A stretch of DNA of 51,192 nucleotides from a virus. Taxonomy: Duplodnaviria > Caudoviricetes. Each line of letters opens with the position of its first letter. Positions within the stretch are counted from its first letter, which is position 1. This document shows positions 17,802 through 36,781 of this stretch, piece by piece. The position numbers and the translations under genes are program-made. A model generated the notes under the pieces. It did no database searches. It saw only the letters and a program-made list of their open reading frames with translations, and was not told the origin of the DNA. Location: IMG/VR virus record IMGVR_UViG_3300025132_000054, positions 1 to 51,192 of that record, one strand, 5' to 3'.

Positions 17802-19598
17802 CTAAGAAATAGGTAGGCCGGGACCACCGGCTGGAAGTGGGATTTGCGGTGGTGCCTCTGTACCTGGAGGTAACCCTCCGGTGACTACACTGTCAACACC
17901 CGGAGGCTGCATTGCATTGGGTGGAACTCCCGGCATCATTGGGGGAGCTTGACCTGGCATAGGAGTGGGCGTTGGTGGAGGCGCGGCAGGGGCGTCTTCA
18001 GCTAAGTCTTGCATGCCTAGCAGGTCGAGGAGTTTGAGGACCAGTTTTTCTTTGTTTACGTTTGGCGCTTCCAGCAGAAGAGGAAGGTACTGCTGAAACT
18101 TTTGGAGCTGAATAATCTTGTGGTTCTCCGTAGGCGAGTACGGCAACGCATCGTAATCAAAATCGAGAGGGTTTTCACCGGGGTCACGGTCAGGCCGGAG
18201 CATTAGGCTTTGGCGGGTGGCCTTCAAGACTTCCCTGCTTCCAGTAAGTCGGACGGGCAGCTTGGTGTTCGGGTCGAGGAACTCTTCGTACAGCCCGATG
18301 ACTCGTTCTGCGGCGGCGTTTACCACGTCTTCAATCTGCTTTATTCTTCGTCCATTTCTTGTTCGGGTTGCAGTGTCGGCAAGCGCGACCTCCGTAGCAA
18401 CGTCCGCCACGCCCACAACCCCCCGACTATACTGAGGGATGCCAAGGATAAACTCAATGACTTGATTGCAGCGATTCCGCATGTCCGTAAAGGAGGGGGA
18501 GAAGGACGGGACGGGCGTTTGGCCAATAATATCTCCTAGCGGCGCGTTTGCTTTGCCTTGGATGGAGATCATCGTGCCAGGCTGATTCGCATCTTGTAGT
18601 GCAGTCATGATGGCTTCGGGGTTGTCAGCCAAGGCTGTGTTGACTAGCATCACAGGGGTCGAGGTATGGGCGTGCCAGAGCTCCAACGTGTCAATCTCGT
18701 TTAGCCTCTGCTGGAGAGATTGGACGAGTTTGACATCGGACAAGCCTGCGAGGTCGGTCATGTTCTCGTTGAACGTAAGCCCGATGAAGGGGTTGCGGAT
18801 GTACCGATAAGGAAGCTCGCCCTCGAACAGTGGCTCTTCGACATCTTCAAGGAAGTGATAGTACCTGCCTTCGCCTTCAAAATCGTACACTTCGTAGACG
18901 GTCACCCAACTATATACGTCAGTCGATGCCTCGTTGACGTAACTCTTGTTTCGAGAGTGGTCTTTAAGGAAAGTAGGGTAGCCGCCGAACACGGCTTTTT
19001 CGGACACTTTGTTGTTGTACAAAGCGCCTTTGCGTCCGTTCTTTTTTGTGCGCCGCTTGTACTCAGATTTTGTGAGCACGGTCACTTCAATAAGGTATCG
19101 AATGTCATCAAACTTTGCGGCGGACATGTCGAAAAACACAAACCGAGGGTCCACAGAGTACATCTCTGGCGTGCCCTTGCGAAAGTTCCACACAACTTTG
19201 AGGAACGCTCGTCCGCAGATGGATGTGTTTGTCGAGGTCTTCCACAACAAAGTATGCAAGTTGCTTCGACGGAACGTATCGTTGATGATTGCTTCCCGAA
19301 ACTTGGCGGCTCCGCGCAACTTGTCCCGTCGGGCGGTCACGGTAACCTGCGGGTTCTGGGGACAAATGTTCGCAATCATAGTGTCGATAAAAGCGTAGGG
19401 ATAGTTCGTCTCGAAGTTGACGCCCTCATCGCCATTGGAGTTGCCCACTGGAGCAGAACCTGTCGGCCCATCGCTTGATTGGTTCCAATACTCCGACATG
19501 TACCACGACCGCCATCGGTCCCAGTCTTGCCGTTCGGTTCTTGATTTCGATTTGTGGGTTCGGATGATGCCCTGAACCTGCTTGCCCGTTAATGCCAT
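17802..19598 (-). CDS. portal protein
   Basis: 598 aa; 'VDPRFVFFD', 'TEVAL' clip-region motif and Pro/Met-rich tail; between terminase and capsid genes. Confidence 0.8.
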   Translation of the reverse strand: MALTGKQVQGIIRTHKSKSRTERQDWDRWRSWYMSEYWNQSSDGPTGSAPVGNSNGDEGVNFETNYPYAFIDTMIANICPQNPQVTVTARRDKLRGAAKFREAIINDTFRRSNLHTLLWKTSTNTSICGRAFLKVVWNFRKGTPEMYSVDPRFVFFDMSAAKFDDIRYLIEVTVLTKSEYKRRTKKNGRKGALYNNKVSEKAVFGGYPTFLKDHSRNKSYVNEASTDVYSWVTVYEVYDFEGEGRYYHFLEDVEEPLFEGELPYRYIRNPFIGLTFNENMTDLAGLSDVKLVQSLQQRLNEIDTLELWHAHTSTPVMLVNTALADNPEAIMTALQDANQPGTMISIQGKANAPLGDIIGQTPVPSFSPSFTDMRNRCNQVIEFILGIPQYSRGVVGVADVATEVALADTATRTRNGRRIKQIEDVVNAAAERVIGLYEEFLDPNTKLPVRLTGSREVLKATRQSLMLRPDRDPGENPLDFDYDALPYSPTENHKIIQLQKFQQYLPLLLEAPNVNKEKLVLKLLDLLGMQDLAEDAPAAPPPTPTPMPGQAPPMMPGVPPNAMQPPGVDSVVTGGLPPGTEAPPQIPLPAGGPGLPIS

Positions 19599-22848: not shown

Positions 22849-23037
22849 TTAACCTCGCATAGACCGTTTGTATTCCAAGACATCTGGGTTGGCAATCTCT
22901 TCGCCTTCTTCTTCATCGTTGATGTCGCGTAGCGTAGAGTCCGCTTTGCCCATACGCCTTTCGGACAACTTCTTAACGAGCTTGCGCGCTCTCGAAGCTG
23001 GAGCAGTGCTATTGCTTTGCGCGGCTGTTTCGGGCAT
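22849..23037 (-). CDS. hypothetical protein
   Basis: 62 aa; TAATG coupling to the terL stop. Confidence 0.6.
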   Translation of the reverse strand: MPETAAQSNSTAPASRARKLVKKLSERRMGKADSTLRDINDEEEGEEIANPDVLEYKRSMRG

Positions 23038-24740
23038 TATTTTCTCCGGTAAGGATATTTACTTTTTCGCCAACGATTCTTCTGCTCAGAACCTGTGCCC
23101 TTTTTTCTGTAGGCTTGGATTTGATCGTAACTCAAATCTTTGAACGGGATGACGTTTTCCATACCCTCTGGCGCGTCTTTCTTGTATCTGCGGGGGCAGA
23201 ACCTAGCGGCAACGCAGGCTATTTGTAGTGCAGAGATTTTATCCCAGTGGTGCCTGTCTCTGCGTTTGCCGGTCTTGCCAGAATGCAGCATCTCTGAGAG
23301 TGCGCTGCGCTCGGTTCGCTTGTCTTCCCGGTACGAGCCGAGCTGACCAACCGTGTCTTCGTCCTTCAGGATTAACTCATCACGGAGCGCGTCCTGCAGA
23401 TACGACAACATCATCGTCACAGACTTGGCGGTAGCAGCGATTCCAGGCTTGTAGGGCTTTTCGTAGTAGAGATTTGGATAAGCCAGCTCCTCAAGTAGAG
23501 CCAGAGTAGCAACACCAACCCCGTTACTCTCCACAGCCACAAGCGCATTGTTGTATTTCTTGCCAACCTCATTGATTTTCTTTGCGAATACCACTGGGTC
23601 AGTGATGCCTCCGTAGGCTGCGACTTGGGTCCATTCTCCATCGTACACCTTTAGCACTTGGAATGCGGCATGGTCGCGAGCAGCATAACCCGCTGGGTCA
23701 ACTCCGATGGCGTAAACGGCTCCCGGCTCTGGCTTCTCGTATTCCATGTACGGGCCTGTCCACGGAACCAATAAAGCGTCTTGGTGCCGTTTAAGCAGAG
23801 TGGAATGAAAGACCGAGCCGACAGATGCAATCCAGCAACTGATGTCGTCGAACGGATAGTATACCTTGAACAGGTCGGGGTTGCGGCGAATCTCTGCGTC
23901 GGTGTCAATCATCAGCCGACGAAACTGTAAGTTCTCTTCCCTCAGCCCGAGCTGCCCGTACTTGTCGAGTAGGCTCATTTCTTCAAGGGTGAGCTTCTGC
24001 CCCTTTGGCCACGGGCGTCGGTTGAGCACGCCGTCCCAGAACGGGAAGAACGCATATGCCCACCGGCCACGACCTTGCTTTGCGTCACGACAGTGGTCGC
24101 GCCACCATTCTGCTGAAGGCTCGCTCATTGGCGCGGGTGTTGACTCGAGTAAAACCTGTGAGTGGTCTCGGTTAATCATCGACGGGTAAATCATCGAGAA
24201 CTGATGGCCTGCATTGCGCCAGTACGGTAGCTCCGACCCGTGGAAGCTGTCAGGTGACTGACCGATACCAACCGCGCCCGACTCTCCAGACAGCACGCGC
24301 ATCTTCCCGCCGTGCTGAAAAGTCAACTGCCGGACCTCGCGGTTGGGTACAGTGTCGGAGCGGACCAGTTCCGGCCATCGACTATGAGTCAAGTGGATGC
24401 GTCGGTGTAGGTACTCGGCCCTGTCTTTGTTATCCGCGATGCAGACGTGATCGTGACCTGGCGTGTAGGCCGATCGTATATAGCCGCAGAGCTCTGCTGT
24501 GAGGCTTTTGCCTGCCTGCCGATACCCAAGGAGGGTCAACCACTTGGTCTGCCCTAGAACGGTCTTTGGTGGCTCGGAGTAGTACGAGACGACCGTCTCC
24601 TGCAATCGTTCGGTAATCGCAAACGGATCGAAGGTATGTTCTTGACCGGTCTTCTGGTCAATGATCTTGGCGTAAGCGCGGAGGCTGATGGCGGGATCGG
24701 CCAAGGCTTCGAGAGCCTCGCCTTCGAGAGGAAGGCCCAT
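23037..24740 (-). CDS. terL: terminase large subunit
   Basis: 'YRQAGKS' Walker A, 'HGSE' Walker B-like, 'ESTP' coupling motif, nuclease motifs 'IGVDPAG', 'VESNGVG' and 'HWD'. Confidence 0.9.
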   Translation of the reverse strand: MGLPLEGEALEALADPAISLRAYAKIIDQKTGQEHTFDPFAITERLQETVVSYYSEPPKTVLGQTKWLTLLGYRQAGKSLTAELCGYIRSAYTPGHDHVCIADNKDRAEYLHRRIHLTHSRWPELVRSDTVPNREVRQLTFQHGGKMRVLSGESGAVGIGQSPDSFHGSELPYWRNAGHQFSMIYPSMINRDHSQVLLESTPAPMSEPSAEWWRDHCRDAKQGRGRWAYAFFPFWDGVLNRRPWPKGQKLTLEEMSLLDKYGQLGLREENLQFRRLMIDTDAEIRRNPDLFKVYYPFDDISCWIASVGSVFHSTLLKRHQDALLVPWTGPYMEYEKPEPGAVYAIGVDPAGYAARDHAAFQVLKVYDGEWTQVAAYGGITDPVVFAKKINEVGKKYNNALVAVESNGVGVATLALLEELAYPNLYYEKPYKPGIAATAKSVTMMLSYLQDALRDELILKDEDTVGQLGSYREDKRTERSALSEMLHSGKTGKRRDRHHWDKISALQIACVAARFCPRRYKKDAPEGMENVIPFKDLSYDQIQAYRKKGTGSEQKNRWRKSKYPYRRK

Positions 24741-25386: not shown

Positions 25387-28300
25387 CTACTGCTCCTCAT
25401 CTTTTTGCGCTGCGAACGCTCGACGAGCTGCTTCAGCGGCGGGCAATAGGCCTGCGGCTCCGTAAGCAAAGCGGGGGTCGTCTGGGCTGTAGGCCCCCGT
25501 GTTTCCTGATGACGACTTTACTTGATTTGGCTCAAAAAACATGTAGTGATATGCGCCACCTGTATGAGTCATTCCTCTGCCTCGACGGCCAAAGTAATGA
25601 TCGGCGTCAACAATGATACCATCGTGACCCATCGCTTCCATTACATCTCGGAAAAACTCGTTGTTGGCCGTTAGGCTTCCAGAGTCATAATCTTCGATGT
25701 GGTGTCCGCCCTCAGTTATCTTTTTATAAAGTTCATCTGCGGTGATTTTTCCGTCAGCCAATGCGTCTTGTACATCTCCCAGCAATGCTTGACGGGTCGA
25801 TTGGCCCACATCATAATCGTACAGCTTATCATTTAGAGTTTCGAGAAGATCGATTCCTGAGCCTGATTCATCTATGATGTCACCATCTGCGTCGTACTTA
25901 TAGTCAACCTCAAACGACGTTTGCCCCTTAGCCCCTGTGGGGTCGAGGTACGCAGGGTTTTCCATTTTGCCGTAGACGGGAATGGTGCGAAACCTTCCTT
26001 CTCCTAGCACGTCTTTTTCAGCCAGATGACGAATAATGTCGTCTTCAAAGTCATCTACAATAGCGTCTACGTCTTGGTCTAAGATGTAAGTTTCGAGATC
26101 GGGGTCAGGAGTGCGTGCGTTAAGAGACTTAGCCGCCTCTAAAATCCTATCGTCTTCGATCTCAGAGGCAATATCTCGCCCGTAATAGCGTTCTTCAGCA
26201 CCAGTTATGCGCTGTTTAATATCAGGGCCTCCGATCCTAGAGTAGTTGTGAGCCACATCTCTAGGGCTATCACTAAAGTAAATAGCAGAACCGAACGCTC
26301 CTTCGACTGACCCTCTCTCGAAAGCATCAAAATCGTGCGGCGTTCCGTGGTACAAAACCAAAGGCTCGCCCGCTTCATCGACTACCTTGGAGTCGCCGAA
26401 AAACTTTTTGAACTCAGGAGTATCGGTCGGAATATCGGGCCTTTGATCAATGAGTTTGGCGGTCACATCAGGAGGCGTGTCTACTCTACGAGAAATAAAA
26501 GCATCTCTGCCGTCAACCTCGCCGCCAGGGCGGTGCCATACTCCCAATGGCGCAAGAGGTTCTTGGCTGGCAGCACGTTTGTCAGGAAGAAGGTCAAAGT
26601 TGTTTCCACGGGTTGTAAGATCTTCCGCTAAAGAGTCGGAAAAATGCCGCGATCTGTTGATGGGGCCTTTGCCAAATACATGTACGGGCACGGGTAGATC
26701 GGGGTACAGTTCATCGAGAGCCTCCATGCGGTGCCTCCCTTCATGACCGTAAACACGAAGACCACTTGGATGTTCTTTAACTTCTACAAACGGCGAGCCA
26801 AATGACTTGCCCTCTTTAATGTGGTTTTTTAAGTATTCTATTGCCTTTTCATCATATGCATCTTGACCGCGAGGAGGGTTTAGACGTAAAAACTCTTTCG
26901 GCGTCATCCATGCAACAAAGCCCCTATAGCCTACATTTCTATTGTCTGGGACCGCATCTAAACCTTCGTTTTGATCGAAACGAACAGGGCCAACATCCAT
27001 CGTCTTTGAATATGCGCTTTGATCTGTTGGGAAAGATTCTTTTAGAAAATCGTCAACCCCGGACCGTGGCGGAAGCCGCATGTTAATAGAATCCCCATCG
27101 CCCACAAACTCCTTCGCTATGTCTTCAAAACTGGCATCCTCCATTCCTTTCGGGCGAAATCCTTTATTATACAAGGCTTTCAAAGAGGCTCGGCTAGATG
27201 CTTGGGCGGATATTTCTTTGGTTGGATACGTCGAAACCACTTCTTCCAACAAACGGCTTCCTATTCCTTTGCCTCGCGCCGACTCATCGACGACGAAGTT
27301 TATAATAGAGTGCGCCCCGCCCGCGAACTCTGAATCTTCTTTTACGACGATGTTGCCCTCTGGGACCGAAAACGTGGCCACGTCGCCCTTCTTTGTTAAA
27401 GTGGGTGATGTTCGAGCGTCAATAACCTTTGCTGGAAAAGATTTTGCCCCTAGCTGGTAGAGGGCGTCTGCTCTCGTAGCTCCCTCTAAAATATACGGGC
27501 CTTGATTATCGACGACGACGATTAGAGGACTGATCGTATTGCTTTCCTCAATCTCTCCCGCAAGTTCTTTTATGCGCTTAGTCCCGTCTGCCGAGTAATG
27601 CTTGCCGTCTAAACCGGGGAAATCTGAAAGTGGAACCTCTACGATGCCAGGGACTTCCCGGTAATCATTCAGCGAAGCTGCGATTGAGTCTGTGTTAGGA
27701 ATGGCATCAGCCAAAATAACTTTTCTGCCGTCTACAACATCGCCCGCAGGCTTGAATGATAGAGGATCAACAGAAGATTTTAAAGACTGCTTGCCGCTGC
27801 GAGCTGCTTTCTCTATGAGTTCTTTACCGACAGTCTCTGCGGCCTCCTTCACCGTCTTCGCGCCCTTGGCTCCTGGTATGAAGGCGGTGGAGGCGAGCGC
27901 CGTCATCCCCAATCGTTGCGCTTGGGTCAACTCTTCGTCCGAGCCTACCGCTTGCGCGCCCAAATCATACAGGCCACCCGCCACGCTCGCTGGATAGGAC
28001 ACTGCCTCGAGAGGAAGAGTGGGCCTCTCGGCAACTGCTCTCCCAGCGATGTCAAGCGCTGCTGCCCGTAGAGGTCCGAGGGGGCTTCCTCCATACTTAA
28101 GAATCAAGCCCTTGCCCAAGGCTCCCGCTGTTTCGCCTGTTCTGCCGAGGGCGTTCAGCAGTGCTTGTTTGCGAGCGGCAATGGTGGCAGCTTTATCTGC
28201 CTCAGTCATATATGGGCTGGGAACCAGTACCCCACCGGGAAGCTCTACCTCTGAGCGGTAGCCGGGAACACCCTCAATGGCTAACGATTCTTCGTATTCA

Positions 28301-28428
28301 CGTTGCGCTTTCCCCTCTGGGCTGGAAGCAAACCTAGCAGCCTCCTCTTCAGCCTCCTCTTCAGCCGGAGAAGGGGCAAAGCCAAGGTTTGCGGCAAGCC
28401 GCTGAAAAGAAAAATCACCTGTGGCCAT
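25387..28428 (-). CDS. polyvalent protein: ParB-like + GNAT + ParB-like + ADP-ribosyltransferase-like (ART-PolyVal type)
   Basis: 'PLIVVVD..YILEGATRADAL'; 'VDESARGKGIGSRLL'; 'GHEGRHRMEAL'; 'FKKFFGDSKVVDEAGEPLVLYHGT...IYFS...GHDGII...FEPNQVKS..GN.G'. Confidence 0.75.
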   Translation of the reverse strand: MATGDFSFQRLAANLGFAPSPAEEEAEEEAARFASSPEGKAQREYEESLAIEGVPGYRSEVELPGGVLVPSPYMTEADKAATIAARKQALLNALGRTGETAGALGKGLILKYGGSPLGPLRAAALDIAGRAVAERPTLPLEAVSYPASVAGGLYDLGAQAVGSDEELTQAQRLGMTALASTAFIPGAKGAKTVKEAAETVGKELIEKAARSGKQSLKSSVDPLSFKPAGDVVDGRKVILADAIPNTDSIAASLNDYREVPGIVEVPLSDFPGLDGKHYSADGTKRIKELAGEIEESNTISPLIVVVDNQGPYILEGATRADALYQLGAKSFPAKVIDARTSPTLTKKGDVATFSVPEGNIVVKEDSEFAGGAHSIINFVVDESARGKGIGSRLLEEVVSTYPTKEISAQASSRASLKALYNKGFRPKGMEDASFEDIAKEFVGDGDSINMRLPPRSGVDDFLKESFPTDQSAYSKTMDVGPVRFDQNEGLDAVPDNRNVGYRGFVAWMTPKEFLRLNPPRGQDAYDEKAIEYLKNHIKEGKSFGSPFVEVKEHPSGLRVYGHEGRHRMEALDELYPDLPVPVHVFGKGPINRSRHFSDSLAEDLTTRGNNFDLLPDKRAASQEPLAPLGVWHRPGGEVDGRDAFISRRVDTPPDVTAKLIDQRPDIPTDTPEFKKFFGDSKVVDEAGEPLVLYHGTPHDFDAFERGSVEGAFGSAIYFSDSPRDVAHNYSRIGGPDIKQRITGAEERYYGRDIASEIEDDRILEAAKSLNARTPDPDLETYILDQDVDAIVDDFEDDIIRHLAEKDVLGEGRFRTIPVYGKMENPAYLDPTGAKGQTSFEVDYKYDADGDIIDESGSGIDLLETLNDKLYDYDVGQSTRQALLGDVQDALADGKITADELYKKITEGGHHIEDYDSGSLTANNEFFRDVMEAMGHDGIIVDADHYFGRRGRGMTHTGGAYHYMFFEPNQVKSSSGNTGAYSPDDPRFAYGAAGLLPAAEAARRAFAAQKDEEQ

Positions 28429-29331: not shown

Positions 29332-31824
29332 TCAAGCCTCCGGTTCAGTCCATCCCATCGACGACGCCATCTTCTTCATAGGCGACTGTGACGCTCGGTC
29401 TATGTGCTTGAGGGTTATTCCCCGCCACACTCGGACAGACTTTCGGTCGCCGTTGAAGTTTATCTTGGTGACGGTAGAGCGGAAGTCCCGCTCTGAAAGC
29501 TGTCGGCTGAACAACGAGTAGCTCTGCGGGCGCTGCTTCATGTCCTCGCACCACTCGACGTAATCGAGGTAGATTTGCTTCTTGGGCACAGACTTTCCTT
29601 TGCCGAGAACGCACCTATCCTCCATGTATTCGGCAAGAACGTCCATCTCCTCACGGTACTCGTTGGTGGCCAGCCTGACCTTGTCGGGAGGTCGCAACCC
29701 GTTTTTCTGCCAGTCAAGACAGCCCTCGACGAGGCGGTTCAGAATGCCTGGGGCTTCTTTCTTCAGCTTGTCGAAGAGGAACGGGTCTTTCTTGTCCGGT
29801 GTGATTTTCACCCGCCACGGAATCCTGATGACGCGCCGCCAGATGCCTTCGTCGTTGCCCTTGATGATGGGGCGATGGTTCGCTGCGATGCACAGCTTGT
29901 GACTGGGCATGAACTGGTAAAAGTCTTTGCGCATCTTTCGGGCTTTGACAGGGTCGCTTCCGGTCAACTGCTTGATCAATGCTTCAGCAAACGGCTTACC
30001 CTTCTCGACCTCCGCGTTAGCTACAAAGCGTGCGCCCTCAAGGTCTGCGATTTCTGTAGGGTGAGCCTCATTGTGCTTCGCCATCAGGAGACCGGGTGCT
30101 CCTTGAATGGCGTACTCACCAAGAACGTGCATCAGCGCGAGCAGCGCGGTCGTCTTTCCGTTGCCGCCAGTGCCCTCCATGAAGAGAAGAACTTGCTCCG
30201 TAACCAAGCCTGTAAGGCAATAACCGAAGAACCTGTGCATGAAGTCTACCAAAGAGGTATCTCCTTGCATAGCGTGCAAAATGAAATCGTCCCACATGGG
30301 ACACTTGGCGTCCGCGTCCCATTCTACCGGACTGATTTTCGTGATAAGGTCGGTTCTATCGTGTCCACTTAGTTTCCCTGTTCGCAGGTCAAGAGTTCCG
30401 TTAGCGACGTTGAACTGCCAAGGGTCTGCATCGAGAGCCGCTGCAGCAATGCATGCCTCGGTCTCGGTTGACGCCACCGACACCATCGCGCTAAGAGACC
30501 TCGCGCTTTCACTGCGAAGGGCGTGCTTCTCTAACAAGCGCCGCCGCTGGCGATCGGACTCGGAGTTGGCCTCCGCAAAAATAAGTCCCGTCGTCAGTTT
30601 CGCACAACGATGGACGGCCCCATCCGTATCAAGTTTCCAACGAGTGTCGTCGAAGAAATACCATGCGTCGTGAGTCGCGCAGTAACGTATACCGATGCCA
30701 AAGGCGTGAATCATACGCTTCGCGTTCCCCAGGTCCGTAAGGTTGTAGTTTCCCGTACCCGATGGAGCGAGGTCTGTTGGCGATCGCATTACAAAATGCT
30801 CGCCCGCAAGGTCTTGCAAGTTCTCCCAACCAAGGCTGCGGCCCTGACCGTCCTTCTCATGGCCCTTGCAGTTCTTGTGCAGGCAACCAGCAGCGATGCC
30901 GCCACCGTTGAACTGCACGACGTAGGCACTGCGGTCGGTATGCGTCTGGTCCCACGGGCAGACATCGAAGACCCAACGATTGCCCTTGCCTGCCCAAGGC
31001 TCTGGACCAGTCAGCTCTGGAAAATGCTTCCGTAACCAGATGCCGAGACGAGCTTGCTCGCCGCTGGAAAGTTTATCCCGCTCATTCTCCTCTGGAGAAT
31101 CAGCCAAAAGTTCATGCAGTTGCTGCTGCTGAACAAACTTTTCCGGCGGATTTTTTGAGATAACGTGCGCGAGCGGCCACGGCCTTTCATCCGAGTCAAC
31201 ACCCTTTCTCGAATATGTACCATATACCTTCCATATCCTAGAGGGGTTGTAGACGGCTTGGTCAACCACCGCGATTGCGTCACGGCTGAAGCGGAACGAG
31301 AGGAAGTCTAGGATGCGTTTGTGAATCTCGGGTGTAAGCCCTTTGCATTTGTACATGAGGTGGTAGCCGTTGCCGGAATCTGCGAAGAGGGGGTCAGGCC
31401 ATCCCTTCGATTCTAGAAACGAGCGCACCCTGCCCACGATTGAAAGGGCTGCTTCCTTCTCTTGCTTGTTGCTAGAGGTGTTCACCGGGCGAGAGGGGTC
31501 GATGTCAATCAGGAGCCAGTTGATCTCCGTGACATCGCGGTCGTTCGCGCTGCTGCCACGTTTCGCGACCCCAATCATGTTCCTCTCGGCTTTTGAGATC
31601 GTCTTACGGAGCGGGTTGGGCGTGAAGTAGACCCCCTTAGCCCCTTGTGTGCAGAGAAATGCTGCTGCCTCGGCCAACGCTTCATGGTCATCGAAGAATC
31701 CATTGTACGTTCGGAAGCCATCCATCGTGTGGACGCCCAATGCACGGAGTTCAACCACCTGGTCAGGGACGAGCACCATCTTTAGACCCGCAAGAATGCG
31801 GTCCTTTGCAGTCATATTCGCCAT
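29332..31824 (-). CDS. primase-helicase (AEP-like primase plus D5/P4-family SF3 helicase)
   Basis: 'LIDID' and 'DSGNGYH' primase motifs; 'LTDLGNAKR' D5_N; Walker A 'GTGGNGKTT'; 'IKQLTGSD', 'GIWRR'. Confidence 0.9.
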   Translation of the reverse strand: MANMTAKDRILAGLKMVLVPDQVVELRALGVHTMDGFRTYNGFFDDHEALAEAAAFLCTQGAKGVYFTPNPLRKTISKAERNMIGVAKRGSSANDRDVTEINWLLIDIDPSRPVNTSSNKQEKEAALSIVGRVRSFLESKGWPDPLFADSGNGYHLMYKCKGLTPEIHKRILDFLSFRFSRDAIAVVDQAVYNPSRIWKVYGTYSRKGVDSDERPWPLAHVISKNPPEKFVQQQQLHELLADSPEENERDKLSSGEQARLGIWLRKHFPELTGPEPWAGKGNRWVFDVCPWDQTHTDRSAYVVQFNGGGIAAGCLHKNCKGHEKDGQGRSLGWENLQDLAGEHFVMRSPTDLAPSGTGNYNLTDLGNAKRMIHAFGIGIRYCATHDAWYFFDDTRWKLDTDGAVHRCAKLTTGLIFAEANSESDRQRRRLLEKHALRSESARSLSAMVSVASTETEACIAAAALDADPWQFNVANGTLDLRTGKLSGHDRTDLITKISPVEWDADAKCPMWDDFILHAMQGDTSLVDFMHRFFGYCLTGLVTEQVLLFMEGTGGNGKTTALLALMHVLGEYAIQGAPGLLMAKHNEAHPTEIADLEGARFVANAEVEKGKPFAEALIKQLTGSDPVKARKMRKDFYQFMPSHKLCIAANHRPIIKGNDEGIWRRVIRIPWRVKITPDKKDPFLFDKLKKEAPGILNRLVEGCLDWQKNGLRPPDKVRLATNEYREEMDVLAEYMEDRCVLGKGKSVPKKQIYLDYVEWCEDMKQRPQSYSLFSRQLSERDFRSTVTKINFNGDRKSVRVWRGITLKHIDRASQSPMKKMASSMGWTEPEA

Positions 31825-31833
31825 GTCAGCTCC

Positions 31834-32064
31834 CTAGAACAGCGGTTCACGCACTGGTGTCGAATCAATGGTCTCACCCAACCGACCAGAATCCAACATC
31901 TCCTTCAGAGCTAACTCCGGGATGCGAACTTGGCGACCCACACGAAACGCTTTCAGTTCGCCGCGCTGAATCAGACGCTGAACCGTCCTGGCACTCACCT
32001 GTAGACGCTCGGAAACCTCCGCAGGCGTCAAAAATCTGCTCTCGAGAGCTGACTCTAACTTCAT
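31834..32064 (-). CDS. excisionase-like HTH DNA-binding protein
   Basis: 'FLTPAEVSERLQVSARTVQRLIQRGELKAFRVGRQVRI'; AGGAGG RBS supports a start at 32064. Confidence 0.85.
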   Translation of the reverse strand: MKLESALESRFLTPAEVSERLQVSARTVQRLIQRGELKAFRVGRQVRIPELALKEMLDSGRLGETIDSTPVREPLF

Positions 32065-32135
32065 CACTGTCCTCCTGTTTGTGACATACGGGTATCCTAC
32101 CTTACAGAAGGTGGCAAGGGCTGACATAAAAGACA

Positions 32136-32423
32136 GTCTACGCTCTGGCGACGTGTCTACACTTTGACGTAGACGCCCGTATCTGCGGGGGAACCTAGAC
32201 AATCTCTGGGTGACTACGGTGTCTACACTTTTCTCCTTATTGTGAGCCTTACACGTTTTTGAAAATGCCATGATATATTGAGGTGAGGTGTATGTGTCTG
32301 GAATAGGTAGCGTAGACAGCGTAGACAACTGTAGAAAACAAACCGTATTCACGGAACAACCCTAAATATCGTGTCTACACTTTGCAGCTCACGGGCGTAG
32401 ACAAGCGTAGCCAGGCGTAGACA
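32136..32423. repeat. iteron-like GTCTAC/GTAGAC repeats (putative replication origin)
   Basis: GTGTCTACACTTT at 32153, 32219 and 32371; CGTAGACA at 32311, 32320, 32396 and 32416; further variants; adjacent to the primase-helicase. Confidence 0.65.
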
Positions 32424-32548
32424 GGTCAGAAAATAGTAAAAAATGATGTCGTGTTGAGTCAGTAACCCAGTAATAGAAAAAAAATCCAAAAAAGGGGGGA
32501 TGCACCATAGCGCGGCAGGCTTCAGCGGAAGCAGGCGCGGGGCGTGTC

Positions 32549-32649
32549 GAAAAACTTTCAGCGGACCGCAAAATATTTTTCATGCCCGAAAAAAAACTTT
32601 CATCACGCAGGTAGAAAAACTTTCAGCGGGACGACGAAAAACTTTCAGC
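32549..32649 (+). repeat. phased AAAAACTTTCA(GC) repeats
   Basis: copies at 32549, ~32591, 32614 and 32636, plus a degenerate copy at 32570; ~21-22 bp spacing. Confidence 0.8.
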
Positions 32650-33068
32650 ACATCAGCGGGCGAGACGCGCCGGACCTGTGACCCCAAGATGTCGAGAGGG
32701 TAGCGACGGCACCGGCTGCAGCGATTCGGGCAACATAGGGGGGACGCCCTCACATGTAGAGAGGCAACGACGCCCCCTTATGCGGTGGTCTCGGTCTCGT
32801 TGCGTCGATTCGGGTCCGATTCATTGCCCATAGGTACGGTTCCGCACGATTGGAAATCCCCCCACATGTCACGGTCACAAGCTCCACAAAAATGCGTACG
32901 ACGTACCTGGTACGTCTAATATTTTTTTCAGCCGAAAACGAAGGTTTAACCACAGCTTTGGCTCCTGGAGCATCAACCGTTGCCCCTTTATATGGTGGCG
33001 CGTTTGGCGTTCAGTCCGTTATCTGTCTCGCGTGGGACACATCAACCAACCCACGGAGGACACATCAC

Positions 33069-33566
33069 ATGCTTGAATCAACCGTAACCGCCGCCGCTTT
33101 CATCGCCGCCGCTAACAAGATTTCCCACGACCTTGCGGCCCTGCACGGGTGCCCCGACTTCAAGGCCATCAAGCGATACATGCGTCAGTATGCGTCACGG
33201 GATTTCGCCACGGGTCACAGCGGCACGATGGCGTTCGAGGTGTTGAGCGCGTTTCACTCCATGTCATTGGAGGACAAAAAGACCGCATCGATTGAAGCCC
33301 TTACGGTGTACCGTGACGCAGCCAAGCAGGCGGCGGAAGACCTCGACGCTTACCAAGTGAAGGCGGCGGAGTTGTTGGTTCGTGCTCTGAATACCCCCGA
33401 GCACCGCAGCCCGAGTATGATTGACCGCTTGTGTCACGAAGTGCAGCATCACGAAGCACTGCGCCCCCGTTTCGCTGAGGTGGTTCTTCAGTTTGATGAA
33501 CTCCTATTCGCGATGAACAGTCCCGAGGAGGTGGCCAAGATGTACGCGGAACAGGCCGAAGGCTAG
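33069..33566 (+). CDS. early hypothetical protein
   Basis: start revised to MLESTV after the GGAGG RBS; 165 aa. Confidence 0.7.
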   Translation: MLESTVTAAAFIAAANKISHDLAALHGCPDFKAIKRYMRQYASRDFATGHSGTMAFEVLSAFHSMSLEDKKTASIEALTVYRDAAKQAAEDLDAYQVKAAELLVRALNTPEHRSPSMIDRLCHEVQHHEALRPRFAEVVLQFDELLFAMNSPEEVAKMYAEQAEG

Positions 33567-33578
33567 CGCGGCCCCTTC

Positions 33579-33637
33579 ATGGGGTCGGGTGCTATTGCGG
33601 CACCCCTGACGATGGCCATCGCAGGCCGAAACCCCGT
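33579..33637 (+). ncRNA. hammerhead ribozyme, type III (extra U after CUGACGA)
   Basis: AUGGGGU-C^ GGGUGC[UAUUGCG]GCACCC CUGACGA U GGCC[AUCGCA]GGCC GAAA CCCCGU; predicted cut after GUC at 33586. Confidence 0.85.
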
Positions 33638-33665
33638 TAGCACATCAACCGAGAGGACACACCAC

Positions 33666-34661
33666 ATGCACACATCAACGCACACCCTTCTAGACCTTGC
33701 CGCCGACATCAAGACCGACGCCCTTGAATCGATCGAGGCGTTGACGCGCCGCCCTATCTCTTGCCCCGCCATCGCTGGGAGCATTGACTTTCTTCGGGGA
33801 TGGCTGGAAGCTGACAGCGCCACCCGCGCCGCCGCTACGCTGGGCGAGGTTCAAGACCTAGTCAACGCGGCGTCATGGTTCGCGGATTCCGAAGCGTGCG
33901 CGATTGGGGAATACGTCAAGTGGAGAGGCGTTGACAACCGCCACCAGTTGCAGGGGATGATGGAAGAACTGGAAGCGATGAGAGGAGCCGTCAAGATGTG
34001 GGACCGGTTGGAGACGCACGCGGCTAGCGTGCTAGAGGAACGTGCAGACGAACCCCCGACCGCTCCCCTATCGACTCCGCCCACCGTGCCAGAGGTCGCC
34101 GCCGCTTTTTGGTCTGATGTTCAGTTCGTTAGCACTCACGACGCCCTGACACGGGTGGACACCTTGAACGAGGCCGAAGAGAACCCGTGCATCGATCATC
34201 TCGCCGACCTTATCGATGCGAATGAGTACATGTTGGACGCCTTGAGCCGTAGCTATCTAGACCGTGGAATCGTACTAGAGTGGGACGCCGAGAACCAAGA
34301 ACAAGCCGACTTGTGGAACGCCGCGTGGACCCTAGCCAAGAACACCGGCTACGCCAAGGACATCGGAGAACTCCACGACATGTGCAGCGCGCTCGGCCTG
34401 TGTCCTGACTATGAGGTAGCATACGACGCCAAGATGCGCGGTGACGCGCTGTTCTTCTTCGCTCTTCTGCACGGTGCGTCTACCTCTTACACCGTCCGCA
34501 ACATCGCCCAAACGTGGAGCGATGCCGAAGACCTTGGGTGGTCGAACCCTCTCGGAGATGTCACCGACGATACAGACCCTGCAGCGATTGACGCAGCCGA
34601 GCGCAGCGCGCTGGACTTCATCGCCGCCACGGGTCGCCGCCTTGTAATCGACGGAGAGTAA
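33666..34661 (+). CDS. early hypothetical protein (acidic)
   Basis: start revised to MHTSTH after the GAGG RBS, since the longer N-terminus would overlap the ribozyme; 331 aa. Confidence 0.7.
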   Translation: MHTSTHTLLDLAADIKTDALESIEALTRRPISCPAIAGSIDFLRGWLEADSATRAAATLGEVQDLVNAASWFADSEACAIGEYVKWRGVDNRHQLQGMMEELEAMRGAVKMWDRLETHAASVLEERADEPPTAPLSTPPTVPEVAAAFWSDVQFVSTHDALTRVDTLNEAEENPCIDHLADLIDANEYMLDALSRSYLDRGIVLEWDAENQEQADLWNAAWTLAKNTGYAKDIGELHDMCSALGLCPDYEVAYDAKMRGDALFFFALLHGASTSYTVRNIAQTWSDAEDLGWSNPLGDVTDDTDPAAIDAAERSALDFIAATGRRLVIDGE

Positions 34662-34745
34662 CCGCGAAGGGGGGCGCTTCCCCCCGCACCGCATCACGCG
34701 GCGTCACTCCCTGCAAGGATGGGGGTCAAGGTCCACGGACGGACA
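34662..34745 (+). ncRNA. unassigned structured intergenic RNA (multi-hairpin)
   Basis: GGGGGG/CCCCCC, CCGC/GCGG, CUCCC/GGGGG and GUCC/GGAC stems; occupies the same slot as the hammerheads. Confidence 0.35.
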
Positions 34746-34767
34746 TCAACCAGAAGGAGCAAGAGCA

Positions 34768-35151
34768 ATGACAACAGCAACAACAACAACAGCAACAGAG
34801 CGAGCCGAAGCACTTGAGACCCTGCGAGGGATGTTCAAGGGAAAGCGCACTCGCAGCGCACTTACGGTCTACTGCATTCTGCGGCACGTTAACCGCATGG
34901 GTACGTCTCGGGTTATCGATCTGCTTGTGATTCGTGACGGGGTTCCTTTCCGCATCTCTTGGAACGTCTGCAAAGCACTAGGCTACACTTACGACAGGAC
35001 GCACAGCGGGGTGCGTATCAGGGGCGGCGGAATGGACATGGGTTTGGCTATCGTTTACAACCTGTCACGGGCAATGTTCCAAGGTTCCCACCTGCGTCAA
35101 TCGTTCCACCGCAAAGATAAGGGCTACGTCCTCCGGTGTGAATGGCTCTAG
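34768..35151 (+). CDS. conserved-type phage early hypothetical protein
   Basis: AAGGAG RBS; 'TVYCILRHV...GGGMDMG..IVYNL' motif recalled from phage hypothetical proteins. Confidence 0.75.
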   Translation: MTTATTTTATERAEALETLRGMFKGKRTRSALTVYCILRHVNRMGTSRVIDLLVIRDGVPFRISWNVCKALGYTYDRTHSGVRIRGGGMDMGLAIVYNLSRAMFQGSHLRQSFHRKDKGYVLRCEWL

Positions 35152-35216
35152 GCTGGTACACTGAAGAGGCCACAGCAGGCCGAAACGGGGGCGCGTGCCC
35201 CCGTCTGTACCTAACC
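35151..35216 (+). ncRNA. hammerhead ribozyme, type I
   Basis: GGUACA CUGAAGA GGCC[ACAGCA]GGCC GAAA CGGGGGC[GCGU]GCCCCCG UC^ UGUACC; predicted cut after 35205. Confidence 0.95.
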
Positions 35217-35230
35217 AAAGGAGACGCCCC

Positions 35231-35728
35231 ATGTCCGAAGCACTTTACCCCCACGATACACGGTGGAAAGCATTCAACCCGAGGACCAACACGGTAATCG
35301 TTGGGCGTGTTCGCGACGTTACCGACTTCACCGTTCACCTGCACACCGGCAAAGATGTACAGGTACACGAGGACATGGACCGCGACGTGCTGTTATCGCT
35401 CAAGCGCTGGCACCTCGCACCGCACCTGTCCACCGCCCGCCCTGTCTATGCGCCGCCCGCCGCTATCGAATGGCTCACCCCCGAAGAGGTGGTCGCGTCC
35501 TGTTACACAGGTGCCACCGGTTGCCCCAAAGGCGAGGCGCTAGACGCTGACCTTGAAGACCTCCAAGCCCGTATCGATGCGGGCGACCTTTGCACGCTGA
35601 CCGGCTCCGGCTCGTGCCCTATGTCCGGTGGGTCGGTGGTCCTTATGCGTGATGTCTGGTTGCGCCTCTCGGACACATCGCGTGCGATGCTGCTGCGCTT
35701 CGACGCTGGATACCTTGACGGCGTCTAG
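35231..35728 (+). CDS. early hypothetical protein
   Basis: start revised to MSEALY after the AAGGAG RBS; 165 aa. Confidence 0.7.
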   Translation: MSEALYPHDTRWKAFNPRTNTVIVGRVRDVTDFTVHLHTGKDVQVHEDMDRDVLLSLKRWHLAPHLSTARPVYAPPAAIEWLTPEEVVASCYTGATGCPKGEALDADLEDLQARIDAGDLCTLTGSGSCPMSGGSVVLMRDVWLRLSDTSRAMLLRFDAGYLDGV

Positions 35729-35790
35729 CCTGATGCACTGACGAGACCGGAAGGTCGAAACGGGGGACGCTCCCCCGTCTGCATCTAAGC
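35728..35790 (+). ncRNA. hammerhead ribozyme, type I
   Basis: GAUGCA CUGACGA GACC[GGAA]GGUC GAAA CGGGGGA[CGC]UCCCCCG UC^ UGCAUC; predicted cut after 35779. Confidence 0.95.
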
Positions 35791-35802
35791 ACTGGAGGAC
35801 AC

Positions 35803-36042
35803 ATGAAGGGAACCACGTTTGAGGTGGTCACGTTTACGCTTCCCATGTATTGGGCGTGTTATCTTATCAACGGTGACGCGACAGGACTGGAGGACGGAGA
35901 ACAAGAACAGATAGACGCATGGCTCGCGTCGGAGGGCAATCCGTACTTCGTTGACGTAGGCGAGCACTACTTCTCTTGGCGCAATGACGCGACCCGACTG
36001 GGCGGCAACGTGGCGGAGTACACCGCGCACCTATACACCTAG
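35803..36042 (+). CDS. small acidic phage protein
   Basis: GGAGG RBS; 'LPMYWACYLINGDATGLEDGEQEQID' motif. Confidence 0.75.
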   Translation: MKGTTFEVVTFTLPMYWACYLINGDATGLEDGEQEQIDAWLASEGNPYFVDVGEHYFSWRNDATRLGGNVAEYTAHLYT

Positions 36043-36068
36043 ACGCCGCGCACACAGCAGCGTCACCG

Positions 36069-36097
36069 CGTCGAGGCTTCGGTCTCGGCGTTTTTTT
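36069..36097 (+). terminator. intrinsic terminator
   Basis: CGTCGAGGC-TTCG-GTCTCGGCG hairpin followed by T7. Confidence 0.9.
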
Positions 36098-36222
36098 GTG
36101 CCTCCTATGGAGCGCCTGACGTTCACACCCTGCACCTCTAGCCCCGCCCCGCCCTCGCCCTCGCTGTGGAATCGTGCCCGCACTGAGCTCGAGCTGCCGT
36201 CAAAGCAAAACCGGGCGAGCTC

Positions 36223-36326
36223 AACGTCACGCCGAACTGCTCCGCCGCAAACGTCACGCCGAACTGCTCCGCCTGGCCGAGCGACGTGGAGTGAACTGCT
36301 CCCGAAGAAGAGTGAACTGCTCCCGA
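36223..36326 (+). repeat. GAACTGCTCC repeat cluster
   Basis: AACGTCACGCCGAACTGCTCCGCC x2 (36223, 36250); GAGTGAACTGCTCCCGA x2 (36289, 36310). Confidence 0.85.
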
Positions 36327-36347
36327 CCTACAGGTTTAACCTTATGA

Positions 36348-36399
36348 ATCAAAGAACTTTTGTTTTATTGTTGCCCCCATATATCGAGTTGATTAGTTT
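36348..36399 (+). promoter_or_regulatory. sigma70-like promoter with AT-rich UP element
   Basis: TTGCCC (36371)-17 bp-TAGTTT (36394), AT-rich upstream; follows a terminator and precedes an AAGGAG RBS. Confidence 0.55.
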
Positions 36400-36424
36400 A
36401 CGAACACAACCAAAGGAGAACAGC

Positions 36425-36781
36425 ATGAGTCTATGTGACGCACACACCGCGAACTGTTGGGCGCGAGAAGAAGAAGCCATCGCTCGGCAAGAGGACGAGG
36501 CAGAGCACAATCACTGGGAACAGGTGATGACCGAGGTGGAGACGTGGGCCTCGGACTGGGAGTGCTTCGCTGACCTCGACCTGGTTAGCCCGAACGAGAA
36601 GGCGCAGATTCTGTCGTACACAAAGCGGCTGCGCGAGTGGCTCGATGAACACAGTGAGTTCTGGAAGTGGCAGACCAGCGCACGGAACCTGCCCGTCGAG
36701 CCGTTCCTGCCTTCGCAGAAGAACACGCCCGTCTACCCTGAGATGAAGCCCACGAAAAACGATGCGGACATCCCGCTTTGA
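36425..36781 (+). CDS. hypothetical protein
   Basis: start revised to MSLCDA after AAGGAG; 118 aa. Confidence 0.7.
   Translation: MSLCDAHTANCWAREEEAIARQEDEAEHNHWEQVMTEVETWASDWECFADLDLVSPNEKAQILSYTKRLREWLDEHSEFWKWQTSARNLPVEPFLPSQKNTPVYPEMKPTKNDADIPL

What the first reader, a model, noticed from the sequence alone, without database searches (positions are those of the whole stretch)
33069..36097. Early phage operon punctuated by self-cleaving ribozymes
Seen: five co-directional genes ending at a clean terminator. Three of the four spacers hold a complete hammerhead core (CUGANGA...GAAA...GUC) with all three stems, each starting 3-12 nt after a stop codon. The type I copies would cut about 23-25 nt before the next start codon, leaving the RBS on the new 5' end. 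The stems differ in sequence but keep pairing, and two topologies are used, which points to selection rather than recent duplication. Known: hammerheads occur near some phage genes and leave 5'-OH and 2',3'-cyclic phosphate ends. Inference: this is a protein-free system that cuts the earliest transcript into separate mRNAs, analogous to RNase III processing of T7 early RNA, and may tune stability or translation of host-takeover genes.
Basis: partly seen in the sequence, partly recalled or inferred. Interest (0 to 1): 0.93.

Follow-up and report, generated by a model that had tools for sequence, protein, structure and literature searches.

The report
Three hammerhead ribozymes in phage operon
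Three of the four gaps between five small genes of an uncultured phage hold well-formed hammerhead self-cleaving RNAs, a real example of an arrangement already described for phages in 2011 whose purpose is still not settled.

Summary
A descriptor scan of both strands of the 51,192-base window finds three complete hammerheads, all on the + strand between genes. They are HH1 (type III, 33579-33637, cut after 33586), HH2 (type I, 35155-35211, cut after 35205) and HH3 (type I, 35732-35785, cut after 35779). Dinucleotide shuffles give 7 hits in 300 windows. Models built from hammerheads of other viral contigs score them at 56-63 bits, against 12.5 or less for anything else. Rfam's own thresholds miss all three. 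HH1 has an extra U after A9, a tolerated natural variant.

Perreault et al. 2011 described clustered hammerheads flanking single phage genes, showed cleavage, and proposed processing into single-gene mRNAs. "Earliest transcript" and "host takeover" are unsupported, since no gene has a known function.

Three points are new:
- In related phages all hammerheads lie in this one variable operon, or are absent altogether.
- Cassettes are shuffled relative to the ribozymes.
- HH1 and five relatives carry a conserved competing hairpin, so the active fold is predicted only when the stretch just after the stop codon is masked. This may be a translation-gated switch.

New member of a known kind; interest 0.35.

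The parts
32900..32926 (+). terminator-like hairpin and T run upstream of the operon; it would insulate the unit from read-through
   Evidence: stem 32900-32916, then TAATATTTTT
32942..32993 (+). two-block element AGGTTTAACC ... GTTGCCCCNNNATAT, a candidate promoter or operator; a second copy lies at 36332-36384 after the terminator
   Evidence: two exact matches of the second block in the window; absent from the relatives' loci. Function is inferred.
33069..33566 (+). g1, 165 aa, no known family
33570..33586 (+). hairpin GGCCCC-UUCAU-GGGGUC. It uses the 5' strand of HH1 stem III and ends exactly at the cleavage-site C, so it competes with the active fold and would cap the 3' end of the upstream product.
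33579..33637 (+). HH1, a type III hammerhead with an extra U between A9 and stem II; cut after C33586
   Evidence: stems 7/4/7; 63.4 bits, E 7.7e-17, against a model built from 42 hammerheads of other contigs; not reported by Rfam
33642..33650 (+). leader motif ACAUCAACC ahead of the ribosome-binding site; exact copies also at 33039-33047 (g1) and 34743-34751 (g3)
   Evidence: 3 exact matches in the window, all here; similar CAUCAACC leaders follow relatives' type III hammerheads
33666..34661 (+). g2, 331 aa, strongly acidic (pI 4.27; 60 D+E against 23 K+R), function unknown
   Evidence: (phrog_21393, unknown function)
34662..34767 (+). spacer 2: G6/C6 hairpin 34669-34685 and the ACAUCAACC leader, but no ribozyme by any model
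34768..35151 (+). g3, 127 aa, basic (pI 10.5), phrog_12365 (unknown function)
35155..35211 (+). HH2, a type I hammerhead; cut after C35205. Stem I may extend by a CU/UAA internal loop and 2 bp (35151-35216).
   Evidence: 6/4/8; 56.3 bits, E 3.2e-15; the minimum-energy fold of the spacer is the hammerhead
35231..35728 (+). g4, 165 aa, no known family
35732..35785 (+). HH3, a type I hammerhead; cut after C35779
   Evidence: 6/4/8; 58.2 bits, E 7.5e-16; RF00163, 21.9 bits, below the gathering score of 34
35803..36042 (+). g5, 79 aa, acidic, DUF6926
   Evidence: (PF21977, E 3.9e-08)
36068..36098 (+). intrinsic-terminator-like hairpin (10 pairs) and T run that ends the operon

Best explanation
The three elements are genuine hammerhead self-cleaving ribozymes, transcribed as part of one roughly 3.1-kb polycistronic RNA that runs from a start near 32995 to the terminator at 36068-36098. 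Each cuts its own backbone after the C of GUC, at 33586, 35205 and 35779, and leaves a 2',3'-cyclic phosphate and a 5'-OH. The transcript is thereby split into g1, g2+g3, g4 and g5 RNAs.

Shown by computation: the motifs, their significance, their placement, and their recurrence in the same operon of related phages.

Inferred: the two type I copies leave their long G+C-rich stem III hairpin at the 3' end of the upstream RNA, and give the downstream gene a short 5'-OH leader with a free ribosome-binding site. The type III copy leaves the small GGCCCC/GGGGUC hairpin on the upstream RNA and most of the folded ribozyme on the 5' end of the g2 RNA. The likely consequence is that each cistron gets its own stability and translation context. 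This resembles RNase III processing of T7 early RNA, or synthetic ribozyme insulators; both comparisons are recalled, not checked here. Whether a 5'-OH stabilises or destabilises the RNA depends on the unknown host's RNases.
For: - Exactly 3 descriptor hits on both strands of 51,192 bases, all intergenic and all in the gene direction. That compares with 7 hits in 300 shuffled windows.
- A type I model built from 25 hammerheads of other IMG/VR contigs scores HH3 at 58.2 bits and HH2 at 56.3 bits; the next best hit scores 12.5 bits (filters off, whole window).
- A type III model built from 42 hammerheads of other contigs scores HH1 at 63.4 bits. The next hits are the HH2 and HH3 cores (21.8 and 19.1 bits), then 9.7 bits.
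- HH1's extra U is a tolerated natural variant. The CChMVd(+) hammerhead has an extra residue at this position, and changing that residue to U raised the rate 3-4-fold (passage in PMC3705267). PLE hammerheads conserve a nucleotide there (PMC4209133).
- The pattern CTGANGATGGC..GCCGAAAC hit at least 119 viral stretches. Of these 119 loci, 83 contain a complete hammerhead, although the pattern did not demand stems I and III. In all there are 99 complete hammerheads with the insertion.
- The minimum-energy fold of spacers 3 and 4 is the hammerhead.
- Relatives identified by a 70-90% identical primase carry 4 (L030), 4 (L034), 4 (G002) and at least 2 (L036/L010) hammerheads in the same operon, alternating with genes.
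- HH1's homologues in L034 and L030 keep stems I and II through changes on both sides: U-A to C-G in stem I and G-C to U-A in stem II (read).
- Published precedent with cleavage shown in vitro and in vivo (PMC3088659).
Against: - No RNA or cleavage data exist for this uncultured phage.
- No Rfam family reaches its gathering score. HH1 is not reported by RF00008 even in a 141-nt search.
- HH1's active fold is about 7 kcal/mol less stable than a competing fold, at every transcript length tested. It may therefore cut slowly or only conditionally.
- With longer flanks, the hammerhead stem I of HH2 and HH3 is the minimum-energy fold in only 1 of 3 contexts each.
- Tertiary contacts needed for fast cleavage at physiological Mg2+ could not be established.
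- Three relatives with the region in hand (L028, L033, L040) have no hammerhead there, and one record that is 91% complete has none anywhere. The ribozymes are therefore dispensable for this type of operon.
- The training sets for my models were retrieved with patterns taken from the window's own hammerheads and then filtered by my descriptor. The core and stem II similarity, and the pairing percentages, are partly built in.
Confidence: 0.78

Rival explanations
1. HH1 and its close relatives are gated switches rather than constitutive cutters. A hairpin that starts 3-6 nt after the upstream stop codon sequesters the 5' strand of stem III. A second helix (CUGACG with CGUUAG or CGUCAG) masks the core. 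A ribosome terminating on the upstream gene would open the hairpin and allow the active fold, so that cleavage is coupled to translation of the upstream gene. This rival concerns how HH1 works and is compatible with the best explanation for HH2 and HH3.
For: - For window HH1 the competing hairpin is in the minimum-energy fold at every transcript length tried. Masking bases up to 33575 or 33578 makes the exact hammerhead the minimum-energy fold.
- The same holds in 6 of 6 members of this subgroup (window HH1, L034_4419, L030_112, L036_2366, L030_965, L034_5280).
- The other 4 type III hammerheads of L030 and L034 fold as hammerheads without masking in 4 of 4 cases.
- The core-masking complement TCAG lies within 9 nt downstream in 4 of 7 relatives' type III copies, against 2 of 49 in unrelated contigs.
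Against: - The evidence is thermodynamic prediction only, without tertiary contacts or kinetics.
- The six sequences are related, so the shared features may be inherited rather than selected. The only variation in the masking helix is one G-C to G-U change.
- The same structures can be read as post-cleavage product caps.
- Across 57 type III hammerheads, the 3' end of the upstream product is base-paired no more often than with shuffled flanks (41 against a mean of 41.0).
Confidence: 0.15
2. The hammerheads are active but matter mainly as boundaries of exchangeable gene cassettes. The conserved ~55-nt modules between unrelated small genes act as shared sequence for recombination between phages, and RNA processing is secondary.
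For: - The operon's gene content is almost completely different between phages whose primase is 70-96% identical. Only g3 (L028, 57%), part of g4 (L033, 53%) and a 29-residue C-terminal stretch of g4 (L036, 48%, E 3.8e-04) have detectable homologues in the relatives' loci.
- The gene starting MNIAFT follows one hammerhead in L030 and a different one in L034.
- In other phages, hammerheads within one genome share stem I sequences (L004, L013, L014, L018).
- Perreault et al. note that the flanked genes are not constant.
Against: - HH2 and HH3 differ in every stem, so they offer little homology.
- The strict preservation of catalytic residues and of paired stems argues for selection on cleavage itself.
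- No recombination junctions were mapped.
Confidence: 0.1
3. Pairs of hammerheads excise an RNA whose ends re-associate into a hybrid hammerhead, which ligates them into a circular or spliced mRNA.
For: - The 5' end left by HH2 could pair with the stem I strand of HH3 in 5 of 6 positions (read).
- In L034 and L030, the two hammerheads flanking the ~255-aa gene have interchangeable stem III strands, GGGGU and ACCCC.
Against: - Cofolding gives the hybrid only a 4-bp stem I and -23.7 kcal/mol, against -30.1 kcal/mol for native nicked HH3.
- HH1 and HH2 are of different topology and cannot form a hybrid.
- Perreault et al. looked for such products and found none.
Confidence: 0.04
4. The motifs are inactive relics or chance look-alikes with no role.
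For: - There are no Rfam gathering-level hits.
- Some relatives do without hammerheads.
Against: - The cores are complete, with long uninterrupted stems.
- Scores are 56-63 bits against outside models.
- Only 0.023 hits are expected per shuffled window.
- All three lie in spacers and in the transcription direction.
Confidence: 0.03

Closest known systems
Clustered hammerhead ribozymes flanking single genes or short gene blocks in prophages and phages (Perreault et al. 2011, PLoS Comput Biol, PMC3088659; passages and section 8 read, figures and supplements not seen)
   Same: There are several co-directional hammerheads of mixed types in the spacers of a phage operon, and the flanked genes are small and not conserved. 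The same reading was proposed there: processing of a long transcript into single-gene mRNAs.
   Different: This is another phage lineage (uncultured, IMG/VR) with no experimental data. Here the ribozymes are confined to one hypervariable operon beside the primase/HTH region, and one subgroup shows a conserved competing fold. I could not check whether this lineage is already in their Dataset S1, because supplements were closed.
Rfam Hammerhead_1 (RF00163), Hammerhead_3 (RF00008) and RAGATH-1-hammerhead (RF03152)
   Same: The core, the three-way junction and the cleavage triplet GUC are the same. HH3 aligns end to end with RF00163.
   Different: All three score below the gathering thresholds. 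HH3 scores 21.9 against 34 (RF00163) and 22.1 against 56.3 (RF03152). HH2 and HH1 are not reported. Stem III is much longer than in the RF00163 model, and HH1 has the extra U.
CChMVd(+) viroid hammerhead with an extra residue between A9 and G10.1 (De la Pena and Flores 2001, as summarised in PMC3705267, passage read)
   Same: There is one inserted nucleotide at the same core position, and U at that position is the most active variant.
   Different: That is a viroid RNA with a replication role. Here the variant lies in DNA phage operons and is very common there.
RNase III processing of phage T7 early RNA, and synthetic ribozyme insulators such as RiboJ
   Same: The logic is the same: a polycistronic RNA is cut between cistrons, which leaves defined ends and terminal hairpins.
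   Different: The T7 case needs a host protein and leaves 5'-phosphate and 3'-OH ends. Here the RNA cuts itself and leaves a 5'-OH and a cyclic phosphate. This is an analogy of function only, not membership.

Membership tests
Hammerhead ribozyme | Conserved core C3 U4 G5 A6 N7 G8 A9 ... G12 A13 A14, and H17 at the cleavage site (consensus as listed in PMC3088659, section 13) | tested here: met
   HH2 has CUGAAGA...GAAA...GUC and HH3 has CUGACGA...GAAA...GUC. HH1 has CUGACGA-U-...GAAA...GUC, which is met apart from one inserted U after A9.
Hammerhead ribozyme | Three helices around the core, with paired junction positions (10.1-11.1, 15.1-16.1 as A-U, 1.1-2.1) | tested here: met
   Stems I/II/III are 7/4/7, 6/4/8 and 6/4/8 bp without mismatches. 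A15.1-U16.1 is present in all three, and 10.1-11.1 is G-C in all three.
Hammerhead ribozyme | Score at or above Rfam's gathering thresholds (RF00163, RF00008) | tested here: not met
   There were 0 hits at gathering. HH3 scores 21.9 bits against 34. HH1 and HH2 are not reported. My own models built from phage hammerheads give 56-63 bits, so the shortfall reflects the Rfam seed models and not the motif.
Hammerhead ribozyme | Stems kept by compensatory changes among homologues | tested here: met
   HH1 compared with L034_4419 and L030_112 shows U-A to C-G in stem I and G-C to U-A in stem II. HH2 and HH3 differ on both sides in stems I, II and III. The family-wide counts (95-97% of cells paired) are partly circular, because the rows were chosen by a descriptor that demands pairing.
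Hammerhead ribozyme | Tertiary contact between stem I and loop II that allows fast cleavage at low Mg2+ | tested here: inconclusive
   HH1's loops resemble the family consensus (alignment). HH2 and HH3 share a CU/UAA internal loop beyond stem I, but with only two sequences no contact can be assigned. Flanks of stem I are A-rich in 91 type I copies.
Hammerhead ribozyme | Site-specific self-cleavage giving a 2',3'-cyclic phosphate and a 5'-OH | not testable with these tools
   This needs in vitro transcription or end mapping.
Clustered phage hammerhead arrangement (Perreault 2011) | Two or more co-directional hammerheads flanking single genes or short blocks in a phage genome | tested here: met
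   There are three hammerheads in 2.2 kb, delimiting g1 | g2+g3 | g4 | g5. The record is a tailed phage with TerL, portal and primase. Relatives have 4 each.

The most novel reading that the evidence does not exclude
HH1 and its five close relatives may be translation-gated hammerheads. A conserved hairpin that starts a few bases after the upstream stop codon, together with a helix that masks the catalytic core, would keep the ribozyme off until a terminating ribosome unwinds the hairpin. An mRNA would then be severed from its downstream neighbour only once the upstream gene has been translated. That would be a natural ribozyme switch operated by the ribosome rather than by a ligand.
Probability: 0.15. 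Interest if true: 0.65.

Novelty: new member of a known kind. Interest (0 to 1): 0.35.

Why it matters
The biological purpose of the many hammerheads in phage genomes is still open, as the 2019 review read states. This locus does not answer that question, but it offers a compact case:
- one insulated operon with two ribozyme topologies;
- relatives with the same backbone that carry four, two or no ribozymes in the same place;
- a subgroup whose predicted on/off folds suggest a testable coupling to translation.

It also shows that Rfam's hammerhead thresholds miss ordinary phage copies, so routine annotation undercounts them.

Tried and rejected
**Other ribozymes.** I looked for another ribozyme class in spacer 2 or elsewhere. 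Rfam in E-value mode on 32500-36500 and on the whole window gave nothing relevant. My two hammerhead models gave no hit in 34662-34767. Reading spacer 2 as an eroded type III hammerhead is possible by eye but unsupported, so I dropped it.

**Gene function.** Pfam, PHROGs, NCBIfam and the ESM Atlas gave no function for g1-g5. Pfam gave 0 families for 10 ORFs of the corresponding operons of L034 and L036, about half of them flanked by hammerheads. The idea that acidic g2 is an ArdA-like DNA mimic rests only on its pI, and I rejected it as unsupported.

**Cultured relatives.** There is no DNA match among 50,697 phage records. Only distant protein matches exist for TerL, g3 and the primase, so no cultured test system was found.

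**RNA evidence.** No RNA holder was listed for 33000-36200.

**A general rule that failed.** I tested whether type III hammerheads leave a base-paired 3' end. The observed count was 41 of 57, and shuffled flanks gave a mean of 41.0. Only the folding energy of the flank was lower than shuffled (-15.8 against -12.4 kcal/mol).

**Promoter-like element.** The second block of the promoter-like element (pattern TTGCCCCNNNATAT) has no match in the relatives' loci.

**Single-protein scans.** The scan for g3 found nothing. The scan for g5 found two loci that share only the DUF6926 N-terminus and have no hammerheads.

**Literature.** The listing of one search for a translation-dependent natural hammerhead showed no such paper. 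That is one search of the held library, not proof of absence.

Full report
**What the window is.** It is a whole IMG/VR virus record of 51,192 bases, rated 96% complete and linear. It is a tailed phage. The - strand from about 62 to 31824 encodes a large terminase (23037-24740), a portal (17805-19598), a polyvalent protein with ART-PolyVal and GNAT domains (25390-28428) and a D5-type primase-helicase (29335-31824). An HTH_17 gene (31837-32352, -) and a repeat-rich divergent region follow. The + strand then carries the five small genes in question, a C5 DNA methylase, an SNF2 helicase, and a family A DNA polymerase fused to a UDG domain. No cultured phage is close: there is no DNA match in 50,697 records, and protein matches are only distant.

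**The observation.** The five genes are g1 33069-33566, g2 33666-34661, g3 34768-35151, g4 35231-35728 and g5 35803-36042, each with a Shine-Dalgarno sequence. The longer ORFs that would read through HH1 (ATG at 33579) and HH2 (GTG at 35195) lack one. A terminator-like hairpin with a T run lies at 36068-36098, and another lies upstream at 32900-32926. A two-block element (AGGTTTAACC, then 27-28 nt, then GTTGCCCCNNNATAT) sits at 32942-32993 and again at 36332-36384. The unit therefore looks like a self-contained transcription unit.

I wrote a hammerhead descriptor that demands CUGANGA, an optional single base, a stem II hairpin, GAA, the A15.1-U16.1 pair, a non-G residue at position 17, and stems I and III, in type I or type III order. 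It finds exactly three hits on both strands of the window:
- HH1, type III, 33579-37, cut after 33586, stems 7/4/7 bp.
- HH2, type I, 35155-35211, cut after 35205, stems 6/4/8 bp.
- HH3, type I, 35732-35785, cut after 35779, stems 6/4/8 bp.

Three hundred dinucleotide shuffles of the window gave 7 hits at the much weaker minimal thresholds, and 300 shuffles of the G+C-richer right part gave 2. HH2 and HH3 begin 3 nt after the stop codons and HH1 begins 12-13 nt after. The type I cuts leave leaders of 25 and 23 nt that contain the ribosome-binding sites.

**Independent scoring.** Rfam reports nothing at gathering thresholds. In E-value mode only HH3 appears (RF00163, 21.9 bits against a gathering score of 34; RF03152, 22.1 against 56.3). 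HH1 is not reported even when only 141 nt are searched.

I therefore built models from hammerheads of other viral contigs:
- R1 was built from 25 type I copies (alignment A1). It scores HH3 at 58.2 bits and HH2 at 56.3 bits, with the next hit at 12.5 bits (filters off).
- R3 was built from 42 type III copies that carry the extra U (A3). It scores HH1 at 63.4 bits. The next hits are the shared cores of HH2 and HH3 (21.8 and 19.1 bits), then 9.7 bits.

There is a caveat. The training sequences were fetched with patterns taken from the window's own core and stem II, and were then filtered by my descriptor. Similarity in those parts is therefore partly built in, as are the pairing percentages of 95-97%. 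What is not built in is this: the pattern specified only the core and stem II, yet 83 of the 119 stretches it fetched contain at least one complete hammerhead by the descriptor.

**The extra U of HH1.** One U lies between A9 and the G-C pair that opens stem II. A passage in PMC3705267 summarises De la Pena and Flores 2001. The CChMVd(+) hammerhead has an extra A at this position, and changing it to U raised the trans-cleavage rate 3-4-fold. PLE hammerheads conserve a nucleotide there (PMC4209133). In viral contigs the variant is common.

**Folding.** For spacers 3 and 4 taken alone, the minimum-energy fold is the hammerhead, extended by a CU/UAA internal loop and two further pairs that differ between HH2 (GG/CC) and HH3 (GC/GC). 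With longer flanks, the 6-bp stem I is the minimum-energy choice in only 1 of 3 contexts for each; stems II and III persist except for stem II of HH3 in the longest context.

HH1 is different. Its hammerhead fold has -28.3 to -29.4 kcal/mol. A fold with the hairpin GGCCCC-UUCAU-GGGGUC (33570-33586) and a helix CUGACG/CGUUAG that masks the core has -36.4 kcal/mol. The hairpin is predicted at every transcript length tried. If bases up to 33575 or 33578 are held single-stranded, as a ribosome stopped at the g1 stop codon (33564-33566) would do, the exact hammerhead becomes the minimum-energy fold.

**Relatives.** The primase found 15 loci (58-97% identity). Six of them hold at least 3 kb of the region upstream of the primase:
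- L030 has four type III hammerheads.
- L034 has four type III hammerheads.
- L036/L010 has one type III copy and one type I copy cut by the contig end.
- L028, L033 and L040 have none (filters off).

Whole-record searches give 4 in G002 and 4 in G005, all in that operon. They give 0 in G001 (91% complete), in G003 (75% complete) and in G004 (61% complete). In L034 the order is strictly gene-HH-gene-HH-gene-HH-gene-HH-gene.

Gene content is almost wholly different between these phages. Only g3 (L028, 57%), the N-terminal half of g4 (L033, 53%) and a 29-residue C-terminal stretch of g4 (L036, 48%, E 3.8e-04) have homologues. One gene (MNIAFT...) follows different hammerheads in L030 and L034. 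HH1's homologues in L034 and L030 keep stems I and II through compensatory changes.

Every type III copy of the relatives is preceded by a G+C-rich hairpin. In the six copies of the HH1 subgroup, the unmasked minimum-energy fold lacks stem III, and masking to 10 nt past the nearest stop codon restores the hammerhead in 6 of 6. The other four copies fold correctly unmasked, 4 of 4. These six are related, so this is not independent evidence. A broader test of the product-capping idea on 57 type III copies showed no excess over shuffled flanks (41 against 41.0).

**How typical the placement is.** In 146 distinct hammerheads from the fetched contigs, type I copies start a median of 3 nt after a stop codon. 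Type III copies end a median of 19 nt before a start codon. These come from rough heuristics. Several contigs have long runs: L004 and L080 each carry 7 co-directional type I copies.

**What is known.** Passages of Perreault et al. [quoted passage not shown] Three tandem arrangements cleaved in vitro as expected, and the Agrobacterium triple arrangement around ardA cleaved in vivo after cloning. They also considered circular or spliced products and detected none. The 2019 review repeats the processing idea and says the specific purpose still needs work.

**Mechanism and odds.**
- I put about 0.97 on the motifs being true hammerheads.
- I put about 0.8 on HH2 and HH3 cleaving in the cell.
- I put about 0.78 on the overall statement that the operon's RNA is cut at these sites.
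- What the cuts achieve is inference. The candidates are separate stabilities, insulated translation, 3' hairpin caps and structured 5'-OH ends.
- Whether a 5'-OH protects or exposes an mRNA depends on the host's RNases. This point is recalled from the glmS literature; the review passage mentions degradation by cellular RNases.
- HH1 may be slow or conditional. The translation-gating reading is my most novel one, at about 0.15.

**Verdict.** This is a real and well-formed example of a known kind. It adds some comparative detail and one testable idea, and it is not a new system.

Noticed in passing
window 32310-32443 and 32547-32654: The divergent region between the HTH gene and the operon holds two sets of direct repeats. 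GCGTAGACA-like units occur about four times, and GAAAAACTTTCAGC-like units occur four to five times at about 22-nt spacing. They could be operators or iterons.
   Followed up: no
window 32942-32993 and 36332-36384: The same two-block element (AGGTTTAACC, about 27 nt, GTTGCCCCNNNATAT) precedes both this operon and the next unit. It may be a phage-specific promoter. It is not found in the relatives' loci.
   Followed up: partly
window 36223-36273 and 36282-36323: Just after the terminator there are two exact 24-nt direct repeats (AACGTCACGCCGAACTGCTCCGCC) and two 21-nt repeats that contain GAGTGAACTGCTCC.
   Followed up: no
window 33039-33047, 33642-33650, 34743-34751: The exact 9-mer ACATCAACC occurs three times in the window, each 18-22 nt before the start codons of g1, g2 and g3. 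Related CAUCAACC leaders follow relatives' type III hammerheads. Its role is unknown.
   Followed up: partly
window 34662-34767: Spacer 2 has the same kind of G6/C6 hairpin (34669-34685) and leader as the ribozyme-bearing spacers, and room for a ribozyme, but none is detected by any model.
   Followed up: yes
window 25390-28428 (-): A 1013-aa polyvalent protein has an ART-PolyVal ADP-ribosyltransferase domain and a GNAT acetyltransferase domain.
   Followed up: no
window 873-7775 (-): A 2300-aa ORF has no PHROG match at E of 1e-5 or better.
   Followed up: no
window 44608-47067 (+): A family A DNA polymerase carries an N-terminal uracil-DNA-glycosylase superfamily domain and a 3'-5' exonuclease domain.
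   Followed up: no
L004 8690-13234 (-) and L080 6271-11133 (-): Unrelated viral contigs each carry seven co-directional type I hammerheads within about 5 kb. Within L004 (and in L013, L014, L018) the copies share nearly the same stem I sequence (L080 counted, its stems not inspected).
   Followed up: partly
L030 1046-1429 (-) and L034 4019-4390 (-): The same gene (MNIAFT...) sits behind different hammerheads and different leaders in two related phages. Cassettes have therefore been reshuffled between the ribozyme and the start codon.
   Followed up: partly
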